From Candidatus Lloydbacteria bacterium RIFCSPHIGHO2_02_FULL_50_18 (GTDB taxonomy: Bacteria > Patescibacteriota > Minisyncoccia > Phycocordibacterales > UBA6899): a stretch of DNA of 64,000 bases. The stretch is taken from the NCBI GenBank assembly GCA_001821395.1, contig MHLM01000012.1:32001-96000 (forward strand). Direction: 5' to 3'. The translations under genes and the position numbers were made by a program. The first letter of the stretch is position 1. Each line of letters starts with the position of its first letter. Shown piece after piece: positions 144 through 62,235 of this stretch. Below the pieces are notes generated by a model. The model had not been told where the DNA came from and searched no databases. It saw only the letters and a program-made list of their open reading frames with translations.

Positions 144-312
144 CGCACTAGGAACGAGCGTGATAAAAGGCCCTTCATAGGGCTTTTTATCACCGAGTGA
201 CGACGTGCGGGAGGCTTTGCCTACGCGCACTAGGATGAACAACGAGCGTGATAAAAGGCCCTTCATAGGGCTTTTTATCACCGAGTGACGACGTGCGGGA
301 GGCTTTGCCTAC
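144..312. repeat. Tandem direct repeat, 2 units (81 and 87 bp), each containing the terminator-like hairpin AAAAGGCCCTTCATAGGGCTTTTT
   Basis: The units are near-identical, with a 6-nt insertion in unit 2; they could be aligned directly by eye. Confidence 0.8.
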
Positions 313-496
313 TCAGCAGTCATTTTTGATCAACTTGAGCTTTTGGTGTGCTGCTCACAAAGAATATACGTTTTTTATGAAATACAGGTAAATGCAAAGC
401 ATTTTCTCCTTAAAAAATTAAACGTCGGCAATAAAATATTTTTTCTGAAATTCGTCAATAATTCCTAAAATATGTGATTTTAAGCATTTTTTGAAC

Positions 497-545
497 TTAT
501 CCACACCTGCTGTGCATAAAAACTGTGGATAAGTCTGTGGAAAGT
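497..545. promoter_or_regulatory. DnaA-box cluster: TTATCCACA (497-505), inverted TGTGGATAA (524-532) and degenerate TGTGGAAAG, next to an AT-rich tract (about 366-480)
   Basis: Two perfect consensus DnaA 9-mers in inverted orientation 18 bp apart, with an AT-rich tract just upstream. Confidence 0.4.
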
Positions 546-2890: not shown

Positions 2891-2956
2891 ATCGCAAACG
2901 AGATAGTTGCCCTAATTTGAATTTTAAGCTACTCTTGCGACACGACCGAAGTATAT

Positions 2957-3037
2957 CGGGGCGTGGTGTAATGGCTAACATGTCTGGTTTTCAGGATAGA
3001 GACCAGATGACAAGAGACAGCGTGACGTAGTGAGGAA
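2957..3037 (+). pseudogene. Partial tRNA-Pro copy: the 5' half duplicated with its upstream flank, an altered 15-nt anticodon loop and no T-arm
   Basis: 2948-2990 is near-identical to 3038-3080, but the downstream sequence does not fold into a T-arm or acceptor stem. Confidence 0.6.
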
Positions 3038-3046
3038 GAAGTATAT

Positions 3047-3119
3047 CGGGGCGTGGTGTAACGGCTAACATGTCTGGTTTGGGACCAGATGACTCCGGGT
3101 TCGAATCCCGGCGCCCCGA
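3047..3119 (+). tRNA. tRNA-Pro (anticodon UGG)
   Basis: Manual cloverleaf: 7-bp acceptor CGGGGCG/CGCCCCG, D-arm, anticodon stem TCTGG/CCAGA with loop TTTGGGA, T-arm CCGGG-TTCGAAT-CCCGG, discriminator A, and no encoded CCA. Confidence 0.85.
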
Positions 3120-3163
3120 CTAAATAAAGAAAAGACCTTCAAGGAGGTCTTTTCTTTATTTAG
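3120..3163. other. Perfect 18-bp-stem hairpin (CTAAATAAAGAAAAGACC / GGTCTTTTCTTTATTTAG)
   Basis: Read directly from the sequence immediately downstream of the tRNA. Confidence 0.7.
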
Positions 3164-3190
3164 TCGAAGGCGCGAGGAGCACAGCTCCGA

Positions 3191-3283
3191 GAGGGATTCG
3201 AAGCCCTTCTCCCATATTTATGAAGGATTCTTATCCTGAGTAAATGGGAAAGGGGTACTGACGCAGTAGGCGTCGAAATTCCC
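3191..3283. repeat. Structured repeat element, copy 2, fused to a duplicated 3' end of tRNA-Pro (TTCCCGGCGCCCCGACTAAATAAA at about 3275-3300)
   Basis: Aligns to 48-139. The tRNA 3'-terminal 24 nt is repeated about 160 bp downstream of the intact tRNA. Confidence 0.6.
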
Positions 3284-3412
3284 GGCGCCCCGACTAAATA
3301 AAAAAACTGCCTTTTGGCGGTTTTTTTATTAAATCTTCAAGATTGAAAATCACCTGCGGCGGTAAGGGTAGATCTCAGTTTTCAATGACTGAGAAGGCGT
3401 CATCGATAAAAA

Positions 3413-7255: not shown

Positions 7256-7921
7256 ATGCCATCACTATTTCAACTCACAGAAAATGATAATGACCAGTTA
7301 CGAGAACTTGTAAATATCGGAGTTTCGCATGCCGGAGACACGTTGTCTTTGATGATGGGGAAACATATCACGGTAAGTATTCCGGGGATATCCGTACAAA
7401 GCGCATCCACTACGCTCTGTTTGCCGCAAGGTGATGAGGATCTCACCGTCTCAGTGTTGCTCCGCGTATACGGGTTAATTAATGGATATGTCTTTTTGTT
7501 TTTTCCGCGCACTGCCGCTCTCCGCTTGCTGCAAGTACTTTCAGGAAAGAGTATCAGCGATGTGCGCGCACTCGATCGATTCGACCGGTCAATATTTCAA
7601 GAACTAGGAAACGTGATCACCGGCGGTACGTTGAACGGACTATCAAAATTTCTCCACATCGAGATGCTTCACTCCGTCCCCAACGTTGTCGTGGATATGA
7701 GTGGTGCAATATTCAATTCCTTATCAGCATCGATGGTGAAGCAGCACGAGGAATTTCTTTCTCTTGATGTTTCGATCTGCATCGATTCTCCATCGAGCTC
7801 TGCTGTGTGTGTTGATAGCGAGGCCTCCGCTGCGCGCATGTATCTTTTTATGGGACCGGATGCCGTGGAGAGGATCCTTGCGATCACCAATGCGATGATC
7901 GGCAAAAAAAATGACCTATGA
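7256..7921 (+). CDS. cheC: CheC-family CheY-P phosphatase
   Basis: Two ExxN-type repeats (ELVNIGVSHAGDTLS; QELGNVITGG) typical of the CheC/FliY/CheX family. Confidence 0.7.
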   Translation: MPSLFQLTENDNDQLRELVNIGVSHAGDTLSLMMGKHITVSIPGISVQSASTTLCLPQGDEDLTVSVLLRVYGLINGYVFLFFPRTAALRLLQVLSGKSISDVRALDRFDRSIFQELGNVITGGTLNGLSKFLHIEMLHSVPNVVVDMSGAIFNSLSASMVKQHEEFLSLDVSICIDSPSSSAVCVDSEASAARMYLFMGPDAVERILAITNAMIGKKNDL

Positions 7922-18667: not shown

Positions 18668-19450
18668 TTAATTAACTGTGGATGAAGCGGTGCTTGTAGC
18701 TGCAACCCCCTCGATCTTCACATTGGCTTTTAATGATACTATCGCCACGACAAGCGCCTTGTGTGCTGCGACGACGGCAATGCGGGCTTCCTCGAGGGCT
18801 TCACGGACCGGTTTGCCTGCGTCGCTCGGAGTTGTACTCCCGGTCATCGCATCAGCCTGAGTCGCCGCTCCCAATATTGAAGCTTCTGCTTTTGCGACTG
18901 CCGCTCTAGCCTCAGTAATCTTTGTTCGCGTGATTGCTACATTTGCAGTAGCGGAAGTAGTATCGACCCCTTTTTCTATGAGTTTTGCGATCCGTGAATC
19001 AACACGATCCGCTAATTTTTCGATGCGCTCGATCGCAGCATTCATGCGTCCGATCATTTGCCGAGCCATGCGTTTCAATATTTCGCTGCGGCGCTCTTCT
19101 TTGCGATCATTCATTTCCTGGCGCCGCTCGTCGATGCGCTCCTTGCGCTCCCCAAGAGGTGGCGTGCCACTCCCGATCAATCGGTCGCGTTCCTCCATTT
19201 CACGCTTGATCTGTGGAGGTAATGACCTCGTGCCACTGGCAACCATGCGCTCTTTTGTTGCGGGGGTACCGAGTGGTTGCGACCGCGTCGTCGTGGCACC
19301 ACGCGGGGGCAGCGGCATGACTCTTGGTAAATTGTTGCGCATCATTACCGGCGCAACGGTTGCTTCTTCAGATTGTTGCGCAAGCGCCGAAAGCGGGGTG
19401 CACAGTAAGAGTCCGAGGACACTGAATGAAATGAGTTGTGTTGTTTTCAT
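18668..19450 (-). CDS. Hypothetical secreted coiled-coil protein
   Basis: Signal peptide MKTTQLISFSVLGLLLCTPLSALA, then Arg/Glu-rich coiled coil and an Ala-rich C-terminus. Confidence 0.55.
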   Translation of the reverse strand: MKTTQLISFSVLGLLLCTPLSALAQQSEEATVAPVMMRNNLPRVMPLPPRGATTTRSQPLGTPATKERMVASGTRSLPPQIKREMEERDRLIGSGTPPLGERKERIDERRQEMNDRKEERRSEILKRMARQMIGRMNAAIERIEKLADRVDSRIAKLIEKGVDTTSATANVAITRTKITEARAAVAKAEASILGAATQADAMTGSTTPSDAGKPVREALEEARIAVVAAHKALVVAIVSLKANVKIEGVAATSTASSTVN

Positions 19451-19763
19451 AAAAAGTGTGGATAAATTAATACTAAAATTACTTTCTCCAGTATAGCAAA
19501 ACCCACACTTTTTGTGACGATACCGATCGCAACAGAGAAATTCAGCAAAATGAAAGCCATCCGACCACGCTTCTCCGCGGGGCATTCGCCTCCGCTGGTG
19601 TTCGGTAATAGTGCTTTATTGCCGACGTAGAGCGAGCGACCTAAAATTTCATCGAGTCTCTGCGAGTACTGAAATTTGGAAGTACTCTCTGTGGTGCGAA
19701 ATGAAAAAGTCTTCTTTTTCATTTCCGGGCGACCAATTTTTCTTAGCAGTATTCTGCTTTAGA

Positions 19764-19899
19764 AAAATGGAAGTACTCACCGTGGTGCCGAGGAGAGCTA
19801 AAAAAGGTTTAATACCCCGCGGCACAGCCCTAGACTCGCGCGAGGCTTTGCGAGCCCATCGCGAGTCCAGGGCTTGCCCTGGGGTTTAATACCTTTTAT
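19764..19899 (+). repeat. Repeat element A (about 136 bp), the inverted partner of 61154-61296
   Basis: About 97% identical to the reverse complement of 61154-61296. Contains an 11-bp direct repeat GGTTTAATACC flanking a GC-rich palindromic core; a partial terminal copy lies at 19679-19700. Confidence 0.85.
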
Positions 19900-19904
19900 T
19901 AAAC

Positions 19905-19935
19905 AAAACGTCCCCAATGTAACATTGGGGACGTT
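19905..19935. terminator. Bidirectional terminator (AAACGTCCCCAATGTAACATTGGGGACGTTT)
   Basis: Perfect 12-bp-arm palindrome downstream of hppA. Confidence 0.75.
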
Positions 19936-19957
19936 TGCGCGAAAAGATTGCCCGATA

Positions 19958-21961
19958 CTATTTTGCCATTAAGGCGACAAGGAGCAATGCAACAATGTTC
20001 AAAATCTTGATCATCGGATTGATTGCGGGTCCAGCAGTATCTTTATAAGGATCACCGACCGTGTCACCGGTTACTGCGGCCTTATGGGCATCACTGCCCT
20101 TGCCGCCAAAGTTCCCTTGCTCGATATACTTCTTTGCGTTGTCCCACGCACCTCCACCCGTGGTCATGGAAATTGCCACAAAGAGTCCAGTAACGATGCT
20201 TCCCACGAGGAGTCCACCGAGTGCCTCGGGGCCAAGCACGAACCAAACGATAACTGGAGCAAGCACAGGAATAAGTGCCGGAACGATCATTTCTTTCAGT
20301 GCAGCTGCGGTGACGATCTCAACTGCCTTGGAATAATCGGGTTTTCCGGTACCGTCCATGATTCCCTTGATCTCGCGAAATTGTCTGCGAACTTCTTCCA
20401 CAACGCTCCCCGCTGTTTTTCCGACAGCCTCCATGCAGAGTGCAGCGAAGTAGTAGGGAAGCATTCCTCCGATAAAGAGTCCGACGATAACGTACGGGTC
20501 CCCGAGCTCAAAGACCAATTTGTGACCGATGGCCTCAAACTCCTGCGTGTATGATGCAAAAAGAACGAGTGCCGCAAGTCCTGCTGAGCCGATCGCATAA
20601 CCTTTGGTTACCGCCTTCGTGGTGTTTCCCACGGCATCGAGAGGGTCAGTGATCGCACGTACTGACTCAGGAAGTTCTGCCATTTCCGCAATCCCTCCGG
20701 CATTGTCGGTGATTGGACCGAATGTGTCGATTGCGATGATAACTCCAGCGATAGAGAGCATGCTCATTGCGGCAACTGCGATGCCGTAGATTCCGGCGAA
20801 GGAGTGCGCAATTAAAATTCCCCCCACGATTGCAATGACGGGGAGTGCCGTTGCCTTCATCGAGATTGCCAGTCCTTGGATGACGTTTGTCCCATGTCCT
20901 GAGGTCGACGCCTTCGCTATCGACTGAACTGGTGCGTGGTTTGTGCCAGTGTAGTAGTCAGTAATGACGACAAGCAATCCGGTTACCACAAGACCAACGA
21001 GCGCCGCGATGAAAAGATTAATGGTTGGCCATGATCCGTTGTCGGTCATGAGCATATTTGTGACAGGGTAAAACGCGGCGGCTGATACAATCCCAGATAC
21101 GATGAGCGCCTTATAAAGCGCGCCCATGATATTTTGTGATTTACCGAGTTTGACGAACCACGTCCCTATAATTGATGCGATGATGGAAACTCCGCCGAGC
21201 ACAAGGGGGAACACGACCGCATTGGGAAAGTTGGGGAACATGAGTTCTCCGAGCAGCATCGCTGCGATTGATGTCACTGCATATGTTTCGAATAGGTCTG
21301 CTGCCATTCCTGCGCAGTCTCCGACGTTGTCTCCGACGTTGTCTGCAATGACCGCGGGATTTCGTGGATCATCTTCAGGGATACCTGCCTCTACTTTTCC
21401 AACCAAGTCCGCACCCACATCGGCTGCTTTGGTAAAAATTCCACCACCCAATCGGGCAAAGACAGATATCAAACTCGCACCAAAGCCAAGTCCGATAAGT
21501 GACTTTACATCACCAGTCCACCAAAAGAAGACGGTCAACGAAAGAAGCGCGAGTCCAACCACCATGAGGCCGGTGACGGCACCACCGCGAAATGCGACGG
21601 ATAGCGCGGGTGCTAATCCACCCTTTGCTGCCTCCGCTGTTCGGACGTTGGAGCGCACTGATACGTTCATTCCAATATACCCTGCAATGGCAGATGAAAC
21701 TGCACCAACGAGAAACCCTATTCCCGTAGTAATATCAAGAAAGTACGAGAGCAATCCAAATATGATGAGCGCTATTGGCGCAATCGCTTTGTATTGCTTA
21801 TTGAGGAACGCCTCTGCACCGATACGAATGGCACCCGATATCTCTTGCATGCGTGCGCTTCCCGCACTCATGCTCAAGATGCTTTTTGCAGTCCATAGAC
21901 CATAGAGAATGGCCAACAGAGAACTTGCTATTGCGAACAGAATATAATTACTCATATACAT
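19958..21961 (-). CDS. hppA: Membrane-bound proton/sodium-translocating pyrophosphatase
   Basis: [20 protein letters not shown] and [19 protein letters not shown] signatures; roughly 16 TM helices. Confidence 0.9.
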
Positions 21962-22050
21962 CTTTATACTATTTTTAATAATGAGATTTCCAAAGATTAT
22001 CGCTATTTTACCTACAAAGCACATGCTCGCGCAATACGCGAATGTGACCG

Positions 22051-59777: not shown

Positions 59778-61043
59778 TTGGTCATGCCCGAAGATGAAGC
59801 CAACCAATCCTCAGCCGCATCCGGGAGTCTAGGCGGTCTTCCCGATAGTGTAGCTCCTTCGGCCAGCGTGGAACCAAAAATAATTTCATCACCAGCACCA
59901 ATGGTCTCCTCTGTTGTGTTACCCGTGGCGAATCCTATCGATCCTGCGGCGACAGAGAGTTCCGCAAATAATGAGAAGCATCTGCTACTCATTGCGCATC
60001 TATTGAATCAGGTTCGCATCAAAAAGTCTGAGATAGGTGCTGCTCGCGATAAGATGGGTCAATTGGGGCGCGAGAGCGCGCAATTGCAAACCGAAATGCA
60101 CCATATTGAGCAAGACGTGCGCCGTGTTGAGGGAGAGTTGTACCAGGTCAAGCTTGATGCCAATAAGCAAGAGAGCACGTCAAAAGGAGAGCAGGTTGGC
60201 ATGAACGATAAAGATACGGAACTGAAAAGGCGGAGCGATGGCATCGCGAGGCTCGAGCGAGATATCGATAAATTGAAGCAAGCGATCGCCGAGCGAGAGC
60301 AACGAATAGCTGAGATAAAAACTGAAAATAGTTCACTTGCGAAATCAAAGGAGGACCTCAGGCGAAAGATCGAGCTCGAACTTGCAGGCATCAGGGTCAA
60401 GGCCGAAAAAGCACGCGAGAAGGAAACCGCGATACGGCGCATAAAACAAGATCATGAACGGAAAAAGATGGAGATCTTTCACAAGAAGAGTGCGCCTGTT
60501 GACCGCTTACACTCAGCTCTAGATAACCAGCGGGAGGTTTCCCGACTGGAGTCCGACCTGCGGCATATTGAGCAGGAACTGTCGCGCACAGAGGGCGAGC
60601 TCCGTCTTATCGAAACGAGTGAGCACCAAGAAGAGAATACATCAAGGGTGGATCAGGGTGAGATGCGCAATAGGGATATGGTGATCTATAAAACAGGAGA
60701 TGAGGTTGTTAAGCTCGGCAGAGAGATAGGGCGGCTGAACGTTGAGATTGCCGAGAAGGAAAGTGAGATAGCAAAGCTGGGCGGTGAAGGTCAGGAGTTG
60801 AGAAAGGGAAGAGAGGAGTTACGGCGACGGTATGAACTCGAGCATTTTAGTGCAAACTCAGGATTTACGCTTGCGCATGAGAAAGAGCTTCAGCTCTCTC
60901 GTTTTAAGCAGGGATTTCTTTTGAAGGAGGATAAGATCAAAAAGAACGAACATGCGCAAATACAACTACGCCATGACCTCATCTCCCTTGAGCAAGATCT
61001 GGCAACGGTTGAAGCAGAATTGCGTCATGCTAACAGTGCATAG
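59778..61043 (+). CDS. Hypothetical long coiled-coil protein (421 aa)
   Basis: Heptad-rich sequence with Glu/Arg/Lys/Leu repeats; SMC-like or tropomyosin-like composition. Confidence 0.45.
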   Translation: MVMPEDEANQSSAASGSLGGLPDSVAPSASVEPKIISSPAPMVSSVVLPVANPIDPAATESSANNEKHLLLIAHLLNQVRIKKSEIGAARDKMGQLGRESAQLQTEMHHIEQDVRRVEGELYQVKLDANKQESTSKGEQVGMNDKDTELKRRSDGIARLERDIDKLKQAIAEREQRIAEIKTENSSLAKSKEDLRRKIELELAGIRVKAEKAREKETAIRRIKQDHERKKMEIFHKKSAPVDRLHSALDNQREVSRLESDLRHIEQELSRTEGELRLIETSEHQEENTSRVDQGEMRNRDMVIYKTGDEVVKLGREIGRLNVEIAEKESEIAKLGGEGQELRKGREELRRRYELEHFSANSGFTLAHEKELQLSRFKQGFLLKEDKIKKNEHAQIQLRHDLISLEQDLATVEAELRHANSA

Positions 61044-61153
61044 CTCTTGATGTGTAACACACTCTGCCGTCACGGGAGACGAACTCTTGCGGGGAAATCT
61101 AAGGACAACGTCAGGTGATGATATGGTTGTGCTTCGATAGTTTATTGTTCAGT

Positions 61154-61296
61154 AAAAGGTATTAAACCCCAGGGCAAGCCCTGGGCTCGCGATGGGCTCG
61201 CAAAGCCTCGCGCGAGTCTAGGGCTGTGCCGCAGGGTATTAAACCTTTTTTAGCTCTCCTCGGCACCACGGAGAGTACTTCATTTTTTTATGTTCA
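61154..61296 (-). repeat. Repeat element B, the inverted copy of 19764-19899
   Basis: Reverse complement is about 97% identical to element A; a partial terminal copy lies at 61381-61397. Confidence 0.85.
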
Positions 61297-61343
61297 GAAT
61301 ATTATCTTAACCTATGCTATAGCATAGGTTAAGATAATATTCT
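61296..61343. repeat. 48-bp perfect palindrome (AGAATATTATCTTAACCTATGCTA | TAGCATAGGTTAAGATAATATTCT)
   Basis: Checked base by base: 24-nt arms with no spacer. Confidence 0.9.
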
Positions 61344-61494
61344 TGATGTAGATATACATGTGTACACTTTTTTAATCGCACCACGAGAGTACTTCCATTC
61401 TTCTAAGGTGGAGTACCACCAAGAAGAATTGGTCGCTCGATGAAATCGCTCTACATCGGCAATAAAAAAACGAACCCGAGGGTTCGTTTTGTCT

Positions 61495-62235
61495 TCATTC
61501 AGTGTGCTGGCGCATTTTTCGCGCTTCGGCAACAAGTCGCTCGAGCGTGTCCGTTGCGATATGGTTTACCATCTCCGATTCAGTCATTGTGGTCGTATCG
61601 ATGAGTTGGATCTGCGGATATTTCGGCGAAAGTTCTTCATGCATCGTCCGATAGCGGTCCACGAGTTTGCGGATCGACGCGGGGTTCGATGTCTCACCGA
61701 GCTTGTCCGAGAGTGCGATACGTTGTCCGCGGCGCATTGCTTCTTCAGGTTCACATACCACGACATAGGAGGCGATGATACGGTCTACCCAAAAACGCAG
61801 CAGGAAGAATTGCTGGATGAGTTCACGCTCTTCACCGGAGAGCAGTCCCTTGTCTTGCCAGTACATCATCCACGCGTACGGGTCAAAGATCGAACGATCA
61901 AAGATCACCACATCGTAAGCATGACCATGTGTGTAGTCGATGACCATCTCGAGCGCATAGAGTGCGGTGCGGATGTTGTATTCCGGAGTCGTACGCGGAA
62001 TATGTCCGATTACTTCGGCGCCTTCTTGCGGAATGTGCACGCGCAATCCTCTGCGTTTCAAGAATTTATAAAGTTCCTTGATGCAGGTCGTTTTTCCCGA
62101 ATCCGGAGAACCGGTGAATTCGATAAGGAATGGGCGTGGCAAGAATGTACCTCCGTAACGCACGTCCGTTCGCAGGTATCCGTGCAGCATGTCCGCCATG
62201 AGTTCGAGGCGGGCAATGTCGATGGTTTTTGACAT
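61495..62235 (-). CDS. Deoxynucleoside-kinase-like P-loop kinase
   Basis: Walker A FTGSPDSGKTT and a DRS motif (VVIFDRSIFD) typical of the dNK/dCK/TMPK fold; followed by a terminator on the minus strand at about 61460-61493. Confidence 0.5.
   Translation of the reverse strand: MSKTIDIARLELMADMLHGYLRTDVRYGGTFLPRPFLIEFTGSPDSGKTTCIKELYKFLKRRGLRVHIPQEGAEVIGHIPRTTPEYNIRTALYALEMVIDYTHGHAYDVVIFDRSIFDPYAWMMYWQDKGLLSGEERELIQQFFLLRFWVDRIIASYVVVCEPEEAMRRGQRIALSDKLGETSNPASIRKLVDRYRTMHEELSPKYPQIQLIDTTTMTESEMVNHIATDTLERLVAEARKMRQHTE

What the first reader, a model, noticed from the sequence alone, without database searches (positions are those of the whole stretch)
19673..19899. ~140-bp repeat element in inverted orientation at two sites 41 kb apart (19.76 kb and 61.2 kb)
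19764-19899 and the reverse complement of 61154-61296 are about 97% identical. Each site also carries a partial copy of the element terminus (GGAAGTACTCNCNGTGGTGC) about 75 bp outside the full copy, giving the two sites mirror-image architecture. The core is bounded by an 11-bp direct repeat GGTTTAATACC and has imperfect terminal inverted repeats, giving a MITE-like organization with GC-rich internal palindromes. Such inverted copies can mediate large chromosomal inversions. Here they bracket the type IV pilus, ComEC and str-operon region. They may also be a structured RNA or a protein-binding family.
Basis: seen in the sequence. Interest (0 to 1): 0.55.

Follow-up and report, generated by a model that had tools for sequence, protein, structure and literature searches.

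The report
Nested mini mobile repeats, CPR bacterium
The two inverted 140-bp copies are not one transposon poised to flip 41 kb; they are two copies of a small dispersed non-coding repeat that has itself been invaded by an even smaller (~60 nt) hairpin element, undescribed as far as I could find, which occurs across Patescibacteria (CPR bacteria) and, where it sits at the end of a tRNA gene, supplies the only genome-encoded CCA tail.

Summary
The repeat is real: 129 of about 134 shared positions are identical, inverted, 41 kb apart. It is a composite of three nested layers.

1. A dispersed "unit" of about 170 nt (19621-19900 +; 61152-61460 -). It starts at the U-tract of a neighbouring terminator (TTTATT|GCCGACGTAGAG), carries a small hairpin H0, and ends in a ~100-nt hairpin closed by AAAAGGTTTAATACC/GGTTTAATACCTTTT. 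Copies in other CPR contigs usually lack layer 2.
2. A hairpin "module" of about 60 nt (GCGAC-stem-loop-stem-GGAAGTACTC-NN(N)-GTGGTGC). Modules show precise presence/absence inside otherwise collinear units. Their stem covaries (11/11 pairs). They occur in Parcubacteria-group and Saccharibacteria MAGs, in tandem, and exactly at tRNA gene 3' ends, where they restore A73 and add CCA.
3. The GC-rich interior between the GGTTTAATACC copies, itself present or absent.

No inverted isomer appears in any contig shown spanning the sites. The orthologous site 2 in a Lloydbacteria sister genome is empty. No recombinase was seen among the genes examined.

Best reading: nested non-autonomous mobile hairpin elements, possibly moved as single-stranded DNA. 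The enzyme is unidentified. Rfam, the papers searched and the phage/plasmid collections gave no match.

The parts
19621..19900 (+). Unit copy 1. A dispersed non-coding repeat (about 170 nt without insertions) running from GCCGACGTAGAG to GGTTTAATACCTTTTATT. Here it is expanded to 280 nt by two module insertions.
   Evidence: Aligned with module-free units L140, L131, L121 and L123. Left-end and right-end motifs located.
19636..19697 (+). Module A. A 60-nt hairpin element (GCGACC ... GGAAGTACTCTCTGTGGTGC) inserted at unit position GAGCGA|AATG.
   Evidence: Covariance-model hit of 48.1 bits. The same insertion position is filled in L142 and empty in L140, L131, L121 and L123.
19698..19725 (+). 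H0, the small hairpin of the unit (GAAATGAAAAAG tctt CTTTTTCATTTC).
   Evidence: Conserved, with compensatory variants, in other units.
19729..19788 (+). Module B (GCGACC ... GGAAGTACTCACCGTGGTGC), inserted at unit position CCGAGC|CGAGG.
   Evidence: Covariance-model hit of 67.3 bits. The same position is filled in L119 and empty in the other units.
19800..19899 (+). Long terminal hairpin of the unit. It is closed by AAAAAAGGTTTAATACC / GGTTTAATACCTTTTAT, with an A-run on one side and a T-run on the other, giving the form of a bidirectional terminator. The GGTTTAATACC copies lie at 19806-19816 and 19883-19893.
   Evidence: Fold energy -80.7 kcal/mol for 19729-19910, z = -8.3; the other strand gives z = -7.5. 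Closing helix and sub-hairpins H1 and H3 across 17 copies.
19817..19882 (+). This genome's version lacks the 3' half of sub-hairpin H1.
   Evidence: Short-form units without it: L036 about 2825-2845 and L144 about 7520-7625. Long forms lie on the same contigs. Alignment.
19906..19936 (-). Intrinsic terminator of the H+-pyrophosphatase gene (19958-22024, -). It flanks the unit and is not part of it.
   Evidence: Pfam H_PPase.
61152..61460 (-). Unit copy 2, rearranged. Most of H0 is deleted, and two modules sit in tandem at the module-B position.
   Evidence: It starts directly at the U-tract of the kinase-like gene's terminator, 61467-61490.
61378..61436 (-). Module C, 81% identical to module B, with compensatory stem changes (AGCAG/CTGCT versus GGTGG/CCACC).
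   Evidence: Covariance-model hit of 69.8 bits; inverted pair I2.
61263..61377 (-). Atypical or truncated module D. It keeps the normal 3' tail GAAGTACTCTCCGTGGTGC (61263-61281), but the usual hairpin is replaced by about 95 nt that include a perfect 49-nt palindrome (61296-61344).
   Evidence: Covariance-model hit of 17 bits for 61260-61308, tail only. Sequence; self-inverse BLAST match.
61152..61251 (-). Long terminal hairpin of unit copy 2. The GGTTTAATACC copies lie at 61158-61168 and 61235-61245. It probably serves as terminator for the convergent coiled-coil ORF 59778-61043 (inference).
   Evidence: No other terminator-like site was found between 61043 and 61152.

Best explanation
The two inverted copies are paralogous copies of a composite built from nested, small, non-autonomous repeat elements of Patescibacteria (CPR) genomes.

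Layer 1, the unit (about 170 nt). It sits immediately after the TTTATT of a neighbouring terminator and ends in TTTTAT(T). It carries a small hairpin about 18 nt from its left end. Its right end is a ~100-nt composite hairpin that looks like a bidirectional intrinsic terminator.

Layer 2, the module (about 60 nt). It consists of a covarying AT-rich stem with a variable apical part and an invariant 19-nt tail. It inserts at a GC dinucleotide so that GC is present at both junctions: ...GC[GACC-hairpin-GGAAGTACTC-NN-GTGGT]GC... Read on the other strand, it starts with ACCAC and ends with hairpin + (T)GGTCGC. That resembles the T-arm + 7-nt acceptor strand of a tRNA gene. This would explain why it is found inserted exactly between nucleotides 72 and 73 of tRNA genes, where it restores A73 and adds a CCA that these genomes otherwise do not encode.

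Layer 3, the GC-rich interior of the long hairpin, is also present or absent between copies.

Shown: the nesting, the precise presence/absence of layers, the covariation, the tRNA junctions, the cross-phylum distribution, the empty orthologous site in a sister genome, and the absence of an inverted isomer.

Inferred: the elements move as DNA, most likely as single-stranded hairpin substrates of a HUH/Y1-type enzyme, as in IS200/IS605 derivatives and REPs. That mechanism fits a 57-nt element with no terminal inverted repeats, insertion 3' of a short motif that is also the element's own 3' end, and tandem head-to-tail arrays. The enzyme was not found. The inverted orientation of the two copies is incidental. 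Their 97% identity reflects a recent duplication or gene conversion of the right part of the unit within this lineage.
For: - Unit family: 17 long-form copies in other CPR contigs share the same ends and have different interiors. Left-end to right-end distance is 147-157 nt when empty. H1 and H3 show compensatory changes. Units lie at non-orthologous positions. The 5' TTTATT is usually the U-tract of an upstream terminator hairpin.
- Module: the covariance model gives 77 hits in 58 sources, about 69 of them above the ~33-bit noise level. Covariation: 11/11 pairs change on both sides, 87% of cells pair against 44-54% in slid controls, and 0/500 shuffles reach the observed covariation score.
- Presence/absence: units L140, L131, L121 and L123 are empty. 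Site A is filled in the window and in L142. Site B is filled in the window and in L119. The L142 and L119 modules differ by a single compensatory pair. L036 has paralogous sites with and without a module.
- Tandem arrays overlap as GTGGTGCGACC.
- tRNA junctions: five exact junctions (Val, Phe, Leu, Val, Ile). Of 30 tRNA genes in these loci, 25 lack an encoded CCA, and the five with ACCA are exactly the ones abutted by a module. 17 of 77 modules lie within 250 nt of a tRNA gene.
- Distribution: Lloyd-, Vogel-, Taylor-, Kaiser- and Nomurabacteria, Paceibacterota and Saccharibacteria MAGs. Non-CPR loci give motif-only hits of 24-30 bits.
- The sister genome L006 (EF-G 89% amino-acid identity) has syntenic genes, but its orthologous site 2 is an ~80-bp intergenic region with one hairpin.
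- No inversion.
- No Rfam family, no paper containing the motif, no phage or plasmid match.
- IS200/IS605-family (TnpB/IStron) elements are reported in Patescibacteria (PMC13011429).
Against: - No transposase of any kind was found next to modules or units. A phmmer probe with two Y1 transposase sequences (written from memory) found nothing in the 1.37 Mb held. That sample is only about 8 kb per genome.
- No full-length autonomous element with the same ends was seen.
- The two unit copies in the window lie in opposite orientation on what looks like one replichore. This does not fit the strict lagging-strand bias of IS200/IS605 elements, though n = 2 and one copy may be an inverted duplication.
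- The strand carrying the structure is not resolved: 34 G.T versus 22 A.C mismatches.
- The 19-nt tail is nearly invariant across candidate phyla. That is unusual for selfish DNA and could instead reflect a conserved host factor or an RNA function.
- Many apical loops look like GNRA or tandem G.A RNA motifs.
- GGTTTAATACC invariance and the GC before ACCAC are partly imposed by my own search patterns.
- Module copy number per genome is unknown.
Confidence: 0.7

Rival explanations
1. The module and/or the unit are functional RNA elements, not selfish DNA or not only that. The unit would act as a bidirectional terminator or insulator cassette. The module would act as an RNA processing or stability signal, or as a mimic of a tRNA 3' end (hairpin + UGGUCGC-A, then CCA or a CAAAA trailer) recognised by tRNA-end enzymes such as RNase Z, RNase P or the CCA-adding enzyme, or by RNase III when two inverted copies bracket a gene.
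For: - On the GCACCAC strand the module ends like local tRNA genes. In L033, GGTGGCACAAAAACAAAAGCGAGCC compares with tRNA-Leu GGGCACAAAAACAAAAGAGCC.
- It begins with ACCA.
- Apical parts often carry C-G + tandem G.A + GNRA or GAA loops on the other strand.
- Folding is usually 1-3 kcal/mol better on the GCGAC-to-GTGGTGC strand.
- The 19-nt tail is conserved across candidate phyla.
- In L109, 144-nt inverted arms that include modules bracket only rpsB.
- The unit's long hairpin is flanked by A- and T-runs, and at site 2 it is the only terminator-like structure after the coiled-coil ORF.
- A module lies within 250 nt of a tRNA gene in 17 of 77 cases.
Against: - Modules occur in both orientations relative to neighbouring genes, with only a weak bias.
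- They are precisely present or absent within otherwise identical contexts.
- They form tandem arrays, and they interrupt another repeat at two different positions.
- The two candidate 'RNA strands' are supported by different features, and the G.T/A.C test is weak.
- There is no Rfam family.
- The conserved apical motif is strand-specific by common descent, so it is not independent evidence for RNA.
- An RNA role and DNA mobility are not mutually exclusive.
Confidence: 0.2
2. One reading: the inverted copies are substrates for homologous or site-specific recombination that flips the 41-kb segment carrying the type IV pilus genes, RecJ, ComEC and the str operon.
For: - The inverted copies are 157 nt long at 92% identity, and about 97% over about 134 nt.
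- The gene content of the bracketed segment is confirmed: T2SSE/T2SSF, ComEC and RecJ, S12/S7/EF-G.
Against: - Every contig shown that spans the sites has the parental junctions: four for site 2 and two for site 1. At each site seven further places were collapsed by the tool because they have mostly the same neighbouring genes. These come from several samples and include a 107-kb contig carrying both sites in the same relative orientation.
- No recombinase or invertase gene was seen among the genes examined near either site or in the segment.
- Flipping would put the str operon and most genes of the segment against the replication direction indicated by GC skew.
- Synteny around site 2 is conserved in the Lloydbacteria sister contig, which lacks the repeat.
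- 134 nt at 97% identity is a marginal substrate for RecA.
Confidence: 0.03
3. A classical DDE-type MITE: the 66-bp GC-rich core with imperfect terminal inverted repeats, which inserted into a small hairpin and made an 11-bp target-site duplication (GGTTTAATACC).
For: - Short-form sites (AAAGGGTTTAATACCCTTTAT) and long-form sites (the same 11-mer duplicated around a 50-80-nt GC-rich insert) coexist on the same contigs.
- The interior ends are imperfect inverted repeats: CCGCGGCAC.. / ..CCAGGGCAAGCCCTGG.
Against: - The 'duplication' has the same sequence in every long-form copy although the interiors differ. This means either extreme target specificity or that the 11-mers are part of the structure. 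The pattern used for the scan did require them.
- Direct repeats around a strong hairpin are also the classic substrate for slippage deletion, so the short forms may be deletion products.
- No related IS with matching terminal inverted repeats was found.
- This rival addresses only layer 3, not the module or the unit.
Confidence: 0.07

Closest known systems
REP / REPIN elements mobilised by RAYT (TnpA-REP) Y1 transposases
   Same: Short extragenic hairpins with an unpaired conserved tag at the foot. They are numerous and dispersed, mostly intergenic and downstream of genes. They are often clustered into mosaics, are non-autonomous, and are thought to be handled as single-stranded hairpins (PMC3733652, PMC3116915, PMC8266576; listed).
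   Different: - The tag is GCGAC/GTCGC, not GTAG or CGTC.
- The stem is AT-rich and 9-11 bp with a variable apical extension.
- A further invariant 19-nt single-stranded tail has no REP counterpart.
- Copies occur singly or in direct tandem, not as inverted REPIN doublets.
- Distribution spans candidate phyla, whereas REP families track one RAYT lineage.
- No RAYT was found.
ORF-less derivatives of IS200/IS605 (palindrome-associated transposable elements, PATEs)
   Same: - No terminal inverted repeats and no clear target duplication.
- Subterminal hairpins.
- Insertion 3' of a short motif that resembles the element's own 3' end: unit TTTATT|...TTTTATT|; module GC|...GC|.
- In the unit, the left hairpin lies about 18 nt from the left junction, similar to the 19 nt I recall for IS608 (from my own knowledge of the family).
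- IS200/IS605 relatives (TnpB, IStrons) exist in Patescibacteria (PMC13011429).
   Different: - The module has a single hairpin, where these elements have a left and a right one.
- No autonomous copy with the same ends was found.
- No TnpA was found in the sequence held.
- No consistent orientation relative to replication in the window.
Bacterial interspersed mosaic elements (BIMEs), and nested small repeats such as ERIC, Correia and Rickettsia palindromic elements
   Same: Mosaic, nested arrangement of several small palindromic modules in intergenic regions. Copies can act as terminators or mRNA-processing sites. Rickettsia palindromic elements also tolerate insertion into RNA genes (established knowledge).
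   Different: - No sequence relationship to any of them.
- The hosts are genome-reduced CPR bacteria.
- The junction with tRNA genes, which restores A73 and adds CCA, is to my knowledge not described for those families.
Integrative elements that use tRNA 3' ends as attachment sites
   Same: The junction lies at the 3' end of tRNA genes, and the inserted DNA reconstitutes the tRNA end.
   Different: - Only 2-3 nt are shared at the junction (GC or GCA), whereas attachment sites share 15-50 nt.
- The insert is 57 nt and carries no integrase.
- Most copies are not at tRNA genes.

Membership tests
MITE (DDE-transposase type) | Terminal inverted repeats matching those of an autonomous IS | tested here: not met
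   The module has no terminal inverted repeats: GCGAC... against ...GTGGTGC. The unit ends GCCGACGTAGAG / GGTTTAATACCTTTTAT are not inverted repeats. Only the GC-rich interior has imperfect inverted ends. No IS with such ends was found in the sequence held.
MITE (DDE-transposase type) | Target-site duplication of fixed length and variable sequence | tested here: not met
   The 11-bp repeat has the same sequence in all long-form copies, with the caveat that it was part of the search pattern. Module junctions share only GC.
REP / REPIN-RAYT | A 20-40-nt imperfect palindrome with a conserved GTAG or CGTC tetranucleotide at the 5' foot | tested here: not met
   A hairpin with covariation is present. 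However, the tag is GCGAC, and there is an extra 19-nt conserved tail. In the unit, GACGTAG lies 8 nt before H0, which is suggestive only.
REP / REPIN-RAYT | A single-copy RAYT gene in the same genome, co-distributed with the repeats | not testable with these tools
   Only 64-107 kb of this genome and about 8 kb per other genome are held. The Y1 probe found nothing in 1.37 Mb.
REP / REPIN-RAYT | High copy number (tens to hundreds per genome) | tested here: inconclusive
   The window has 4 modules and 2 units in 64 kb. No further module was found in the ~10 kb beyond the window end covered by L145. Five contigs of one metagenome carry units. No whole-genome count was possible.
IS200/IS605-derived non-autonomous element | Insertion 3' of a specific short motif, no duplication, with the element's 3' end resembling the target | tested here: met
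   For the nine main-family copies inspected, the unit starts after TT(T)ATT and ends in TTTTAT(T), with TTTTACT at window site 2. For the module, empty/filled pairs give ...GC|GACC...GTGGTGC|.... A 2-bp duplication cannot be excluded.
IS200/IS605-derived non-autonomous element | Subterminal hairpins at both ends, recognised on one strand | tested here: inconclusive
   The unit has H0 near the left end and hairpins near the right end. The module has a single hairpin. The strand is unresolved.
IS200/IS605-derived non-autonomous element | Orientation bias relative to replication (active strand on the lagging-strand template) | tested here: not met
   The two unit copies lie in opposite orientation within a window of uniformly positive cumulative GC skew. 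n = 2, so this is weak.
Programmed invertible segment | Both orientations present in the population, and an adjacent invertase/recombinase | tested here: not met
   Only the parental junctions appear in the contigs shown spanning the sites. No recombinase was seen among the genes examined.
Described structured RNA family (Rfam 15) | A match to a curated covariance model | tested here: not met
   The window at gathering threshold gave only two tRNAs. Site 1 at E up to 10 gave only generic hairpin hits far below threshold. Canonical units gave nothing. 18 module-bearing loci gave only tRNAs.

The most novel reading that the evidence does not exclude
The ~60-nt module is a previously undescribed mobile element, or mobile functional RNA cassette, shared across Patescibacteria candidate phyla. 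Its insertion rule (hairpin + 6-7 nt ending in GC, then ACCA...) mimics the T-arm/acceptor end of tRNA genes. As a result it can colonise tRNA gene ends without harm, and it becomes the source of the only genome-encoded CCA tails in these organisms. The near-invariant 19-nt tail would mark recognition by an unidentified, CPR-wide enzyme: either a domesticated HUH-type transposase or a tRNA-end-processing factor.
Probability: 0.4. Interest if true: 0.65.

Novelty: new variant of a known kind. Interest (0 to 1): 0.5.

Why it matters
CPR/Patescibacteria genomes are very small and are usually regarded as poor in repeats and mobile DNA. This locus shows that they carry families of tiny nested hairpin elements. 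One of them is conserved across candidate phyla and has a precise relationship to tRNA gene ends.

If these elements are mobile, they are a new handle on genome dynamics and on an unknown transposition enzyme in uncultured bacteria. If they act as RNA, they point to a CPR-specific signal for RNA processing or termination.

There are also practical consequences. They break short-read assemblies (several contigs end inside them). They create spurious ORF calls (a 91-aa 'gene' is called inside site 1). They can make tRNA genes look as if they encode CCA.

For the original question, the result is reassuring and ordinary: there is no sign that the pilus/ComEC/str region is an invertible segment.

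Tried and rejected
- Rfam at gathering and permissive thresholds, on the window, on canonical units and on 18 module loci: only tRNAs and sub-threshold generic hairpin hits.
- Full-text search for the motif string in either orientation, DNA or RNA: 0 papers. Searches for CPR plus REP/MITE/IS200/RAYT found no relevant paper. The HUH survey PMC6006769 does not mention CPR lineages.
- Viral contigs: 24 motif matches, but only one weak model hit. Phage and plasmid collections: no match.
- Y1 transposase probe: nothing.
- Search for autonomous elements between module pairs. L109 brackets rpsB. L143 brackets an unannotated 188-aa ORF that I did not scan against Pfam. L079 brackets two tRNAs. None looked like a transposase gene.
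- Promoter idea: TTGCCG-17-TAAAAT at 19619-19647 exists only because module A supplies the -10 box. It is at chance level and absent from other units.
- Coding idea: the ATG before GAAGTACTC is not in a conserved frame (ATGGAAG versus ATGAAG versus CAAGAAG).
- Ideas considered from memory and dropped for lack of the defining motifs: T-box-like pairing of UGGUGC with the tRNA NCCA end, a group II intron 5' end (GUGCGAC), integron attC (GTTRRRY), DnaA box, Chi, and dif/Xer sites. TIGR arrays have a 36-nt period per the abstract shown, unlike the ~60-nt modules.
- Gene-orientation statistics from crude ORF calling gave only a weak bias, and the calling made at least one error, at site 2.
- The strand test by G.T versus A.C mismatches was weak.
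- Rows L133 and L139 of alignment A3 used wrong coordinates and should be ignored.
Full report
**Observation.** The repeat is real. The repeat finder reports inverted arms 19750-19906 / 61145-61301 (157 nt, 92%). It also reports a second pair, 19726-19778 / 61387-61439 (53 nt, 81%). The motif GAAGTACTC-N2-3-GTGGTGC occurs four times, only at these sites. GGTTTAATACC also occurs four times. TTGCCGAYGTAGAGCGA occurs once at the outer edge of each site.

Site 1 lies between the stop of an H+-pyrophosphatase gene (19958-22024, -) and the start of a 260-aa secreted-protein gene (18668-19450, -). Site 2 lies between a coiled-coil ORF (59778-61043, +) and a convergent P-loop kinase-like gene (61495-62235, -).

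**The 'partial terminus' is the tail of a separate 60-nt module.** In 56 of them, all of them Patescibacteria or unclassified MAGs except one weak (27-bit) hit in a MAG labelled Gallionella, the motif is preceded by GCGAC, a 9-11-bp AT-rich stem, a variable apical part and the complementary stem. The remaining loci are GC-rich genomes where only the 19-mer matches, and they score 24-30 bits with the model.

On a 32-sequence seed, 10 of 11 stem pairs change on both sides. On all 77 matches, 11 of 11 do, with 87% of cells paired against 44-54% in slid controls and 0/500 shuffles reaching the covariation score.

The window holds three complete modules: 19636-19697 +, 19729-19788 + and 61378-61436 -. 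It also holds one atypical copy, 61263-61377 -, whose hairpin is replaced by sequence that includes a perfect 49-nt palindrome at 61296-61344. Carriers include Lloyd-, Vogel-, Taylor-, Kaiser- and Nomurabacteria, Paceibacterota and Saccharibacteria MAGs. These belong to the Parcubacteria group and to Saccharimonadota.

**The 'core' belongs to a ~170-nt unit.** L036 has two paralogous sites with the same flanks. One has a module and an intact small hairpin, AAAGGGTTTAATACCCTTTAT. The other has no module, but its hairpin is split by a 64-nt GC-rich insert flanked by GGTCTAATACC / GGTTTAATACC.

A metagenome scan for this architecture gave 26 loci. Seventeen of them are clear relatives, and the rest are AT-rich unrelated repeats. 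The relatives define the unit as follows:

[terminator hairpin + TTTATT] GCCGACGTAGAGCGAGCG - H0 hairpin - CGAGCCGAGGAGAGCTAAAA - AAGGTTTAATACC - H1/H2/H3 - GGTTTAATACC - TTTTAT(T)

The left and right ends lie 147-157 nt apart when no module is inserted. H1 and H3 show compensatory changes between copies. The invariance of the 11-mers is imposed by my search pattern. The long hairpin folds strongly on either strand (z = -8.3 and -7.5) and is flanked by an A-run and a T-run, which is the form of a bidirectional terminator.

Short-form and long-form units coexist on one contig, in L144 and in L036. The GC-rich interior is therefore a third present-or-absent layer. Whether it arose by insertion or was lost by slippage deletion between the 11-mers is open. 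Units in other genomes are not next to homologues of the window's genes. No Rfam family matches them.

**Modules are insertions.** In alignment A3 (ignore rows L133 and L139, which used wrong coordinates), units L140, L131, L121 and L123 are empty. The window's module A and the L142 module occupy GAGCGA|AATG. The window's module B and the L119 module occupy CCGAGC|CGAGG. The L142 and L119 modules differ only by one compensatory pair, although they sit at different positions.

The junctions reduce to ...GC[GACC...GTGGT]GC.... Modules also occur in head-to-tail arrays that overlap as GTGGTGCGACC.

In five loci the module abuts a tRNA gene exactly: Val, Phe, Leu, Val and Ile. On the tRNA strand this reads ...C72|ACCAC-NN-GAGTACTTC-hairpin-GGTCGC|ACAAAA, so the displaced native trailer follows the module. 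Of 30 tRNA genes in these loci, 25 lack an encoded CCA and end N73 + CAAAA-like. The five with ACCA are exactly the five with a module. On that strand the module ends with hairpin + 6-7 nt + GC|, like the T-arm plus acceptor strand of a tRNA gene. That may explain the target choice (inference).

**Inversion.** The window is JGI 3300002502 contig C687J35174_10000429. The same genome occurs in many assemblies, including a 107-kb contig that carries both sites about 42.8 kb apart in the same relative orientation. Every contig shown that spans a site has the parental junctions at 99.8-100% identity. Short contigs end inside the repeat or its palindrome.

GC skew is positive over the whole window, and the minus-strand gene block at 9.6-24.3 kb has boundaries unrelated to the repeats. 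No recombinase was seen among the genes examined.

In the Lloydbacteria sister contig L006 (EF-G 77% nucleotide and 89% amino-acid identity), the order EF-G, coiled-coil, kinase-like, HAD is conserved. The orthologous site 2 there is about 80 bp with a single hairpin. The composite is therefore a lineage-specific acquisition, not a conserved recombination site.

**Mechanism.** Several features resemble IS200/IS605 derivatives and REPs, which are handled as single-stranded hairpins by HUH/Y1 enzymes:
- The module is only about 57 nt long.
- There are no terminal inverted repeats.
- Insertion occurs 3' of a short motif that is also the element's own 3' end. This holds for the module (GC) and for the unit (TTTATT).
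- Modules form tandem arrays, and the stem covaries.

IS200/IS605 relatives are reported in Patescibacteria (PMC13011429). I rate this mechanism at about one in three, for these reasons:
- No transposase was found.
- The orientation of the two copies relative to replication is inconsistent.
- The active strand is unresolved.
- The tail is conserved to a degree more typical of a host-factor site.

An RNA role (terminator, processing signal or tRNA-end mimic) is compatible with the data and is not exclusive of DNA mobility.

**Comparison and novelty.** The closest known kinds are REP/REPIN, PATE-like IS200/IS605 derivatives and BIME-type mosaics. The defining tags (GTAG/CGTC), the doublet organisation and the associated transposase were not met or could not be tested. 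I therefore file this as a new variant of a known kind, not as a member of any of these families. The motif string occurs in no paper searched, and no Rfam family, phage record or plasmid record matches.

**Verdict.** The inversion idea is not supported. The interesting part is the nested architecture and the cross-phylum 60-nt module with its tRNA-end junction. Interest 0.5.

Noticed in passing
L109 4024-5061 (Paceibacterota MAG JAQVIY010000002): 144-nt inverted arms at 97% identity, each containing a module, bracket exactly the ribosomal protein S2 gene, between a release-factor ORF and tsf. The 5' and 3' flanks of the rpsB transcript would be complementary over 144 nt. Whether this is a processing stem or just an inverted duplication is unexplained.
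   Followed up: partly
window 480-540: Two perfect DnaA-box 9-mers (TTATCCACA / TGTGGATAA) in inverted orientation. They lie upstream of a 378-aa ORF (1699-2835) that has no Pfam hit. Cumulative GC skew rises from here across the whole window, so the replication origin may lie at the window start.
   Followed up: partly
window 2948-3330: The tRNA-Pro gene (3047-3120) is flanked by partial copies of itself. Its 5' half plus 9 upstream nt is repeated at 2948-2990 (98%). Its last 14 nt plus CTAAATAAA is repeated at 3280-3302, 174 nt downstream, and each 3' copy is followed by a different terminator hairpin. This looks like a remnant of an integration or duplication at a tRNA end.
   Followed up: no
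window 153-312: A perfect 72-nt direct repeat (153-224 and 241-312), 88 nt apart start to start, containing the hairpin GATAAAAGGCCCTTCATAGGGCTTTTTATC. It belongs to another small repeat family that I did not examine.
   Followed up: no
window 422-435 (-) and L033 2547: The unit's left-end motif TTTATTGCCGACGT occurs alone, without the rest of the unit. In the window it lies about 20 nt upstream of a Shine-Dalgarno sequence and an ATG.
   Followed up: no
window 61296-61344: A perfect 49-nt AT-rich palindrome inside the atypical module at site 2. Two short contigs from other samples end exactly within it.
   Followed up: partly
window 19619-19647: The insertion of module A next to the unit's TTGCCG creates a promoter-like site, TTGCCG-17-TAAAAT, pointing into the unit. 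The scan finds such sites at about chance level in this region.
   Followed up: partly
L151 1343-1354 (short contig, other sample): A variant of site 2 in which about 35 nt of the right half of the GC-rich interior (window 61149-61183) are replaced by 10 nt. This is either a population variant or an assembly artefact in the hairpin.
   Followed up: no
L079 2436-2497; L061 3113-3203: The 3' end plus trailer of a tRNA gene is followed by its own inverted copy: a perfect 30-nt palindrome in L079 and an 80%-complementary inverted copy in L061. It forms a hairpin that includes the acceptor end and may be how these CPR tRNA genes terminate transcription.
   Followed up: no
L153 9729-10004 (= window about 19450-19725): Public gene calls place a 91-aa ORF with no Pfam hit inside the repeat at site 1. 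It is almost certainly a false gene call caused by the repeat.
   Followed up: no
L046 6087-6144, L092 2282-2342, L017 7725-7783: In two GW2011 Parcubacteria genomes, modules with different hairpins sit within the same longer flanks (GAGACATTTTGTG...GAAATGCGACC[module]GTGGTGCGCCGTTTGCGTAAGT). This points to another host repeat for the module, or to exchange of hairpins between copies.
   Followed up: no
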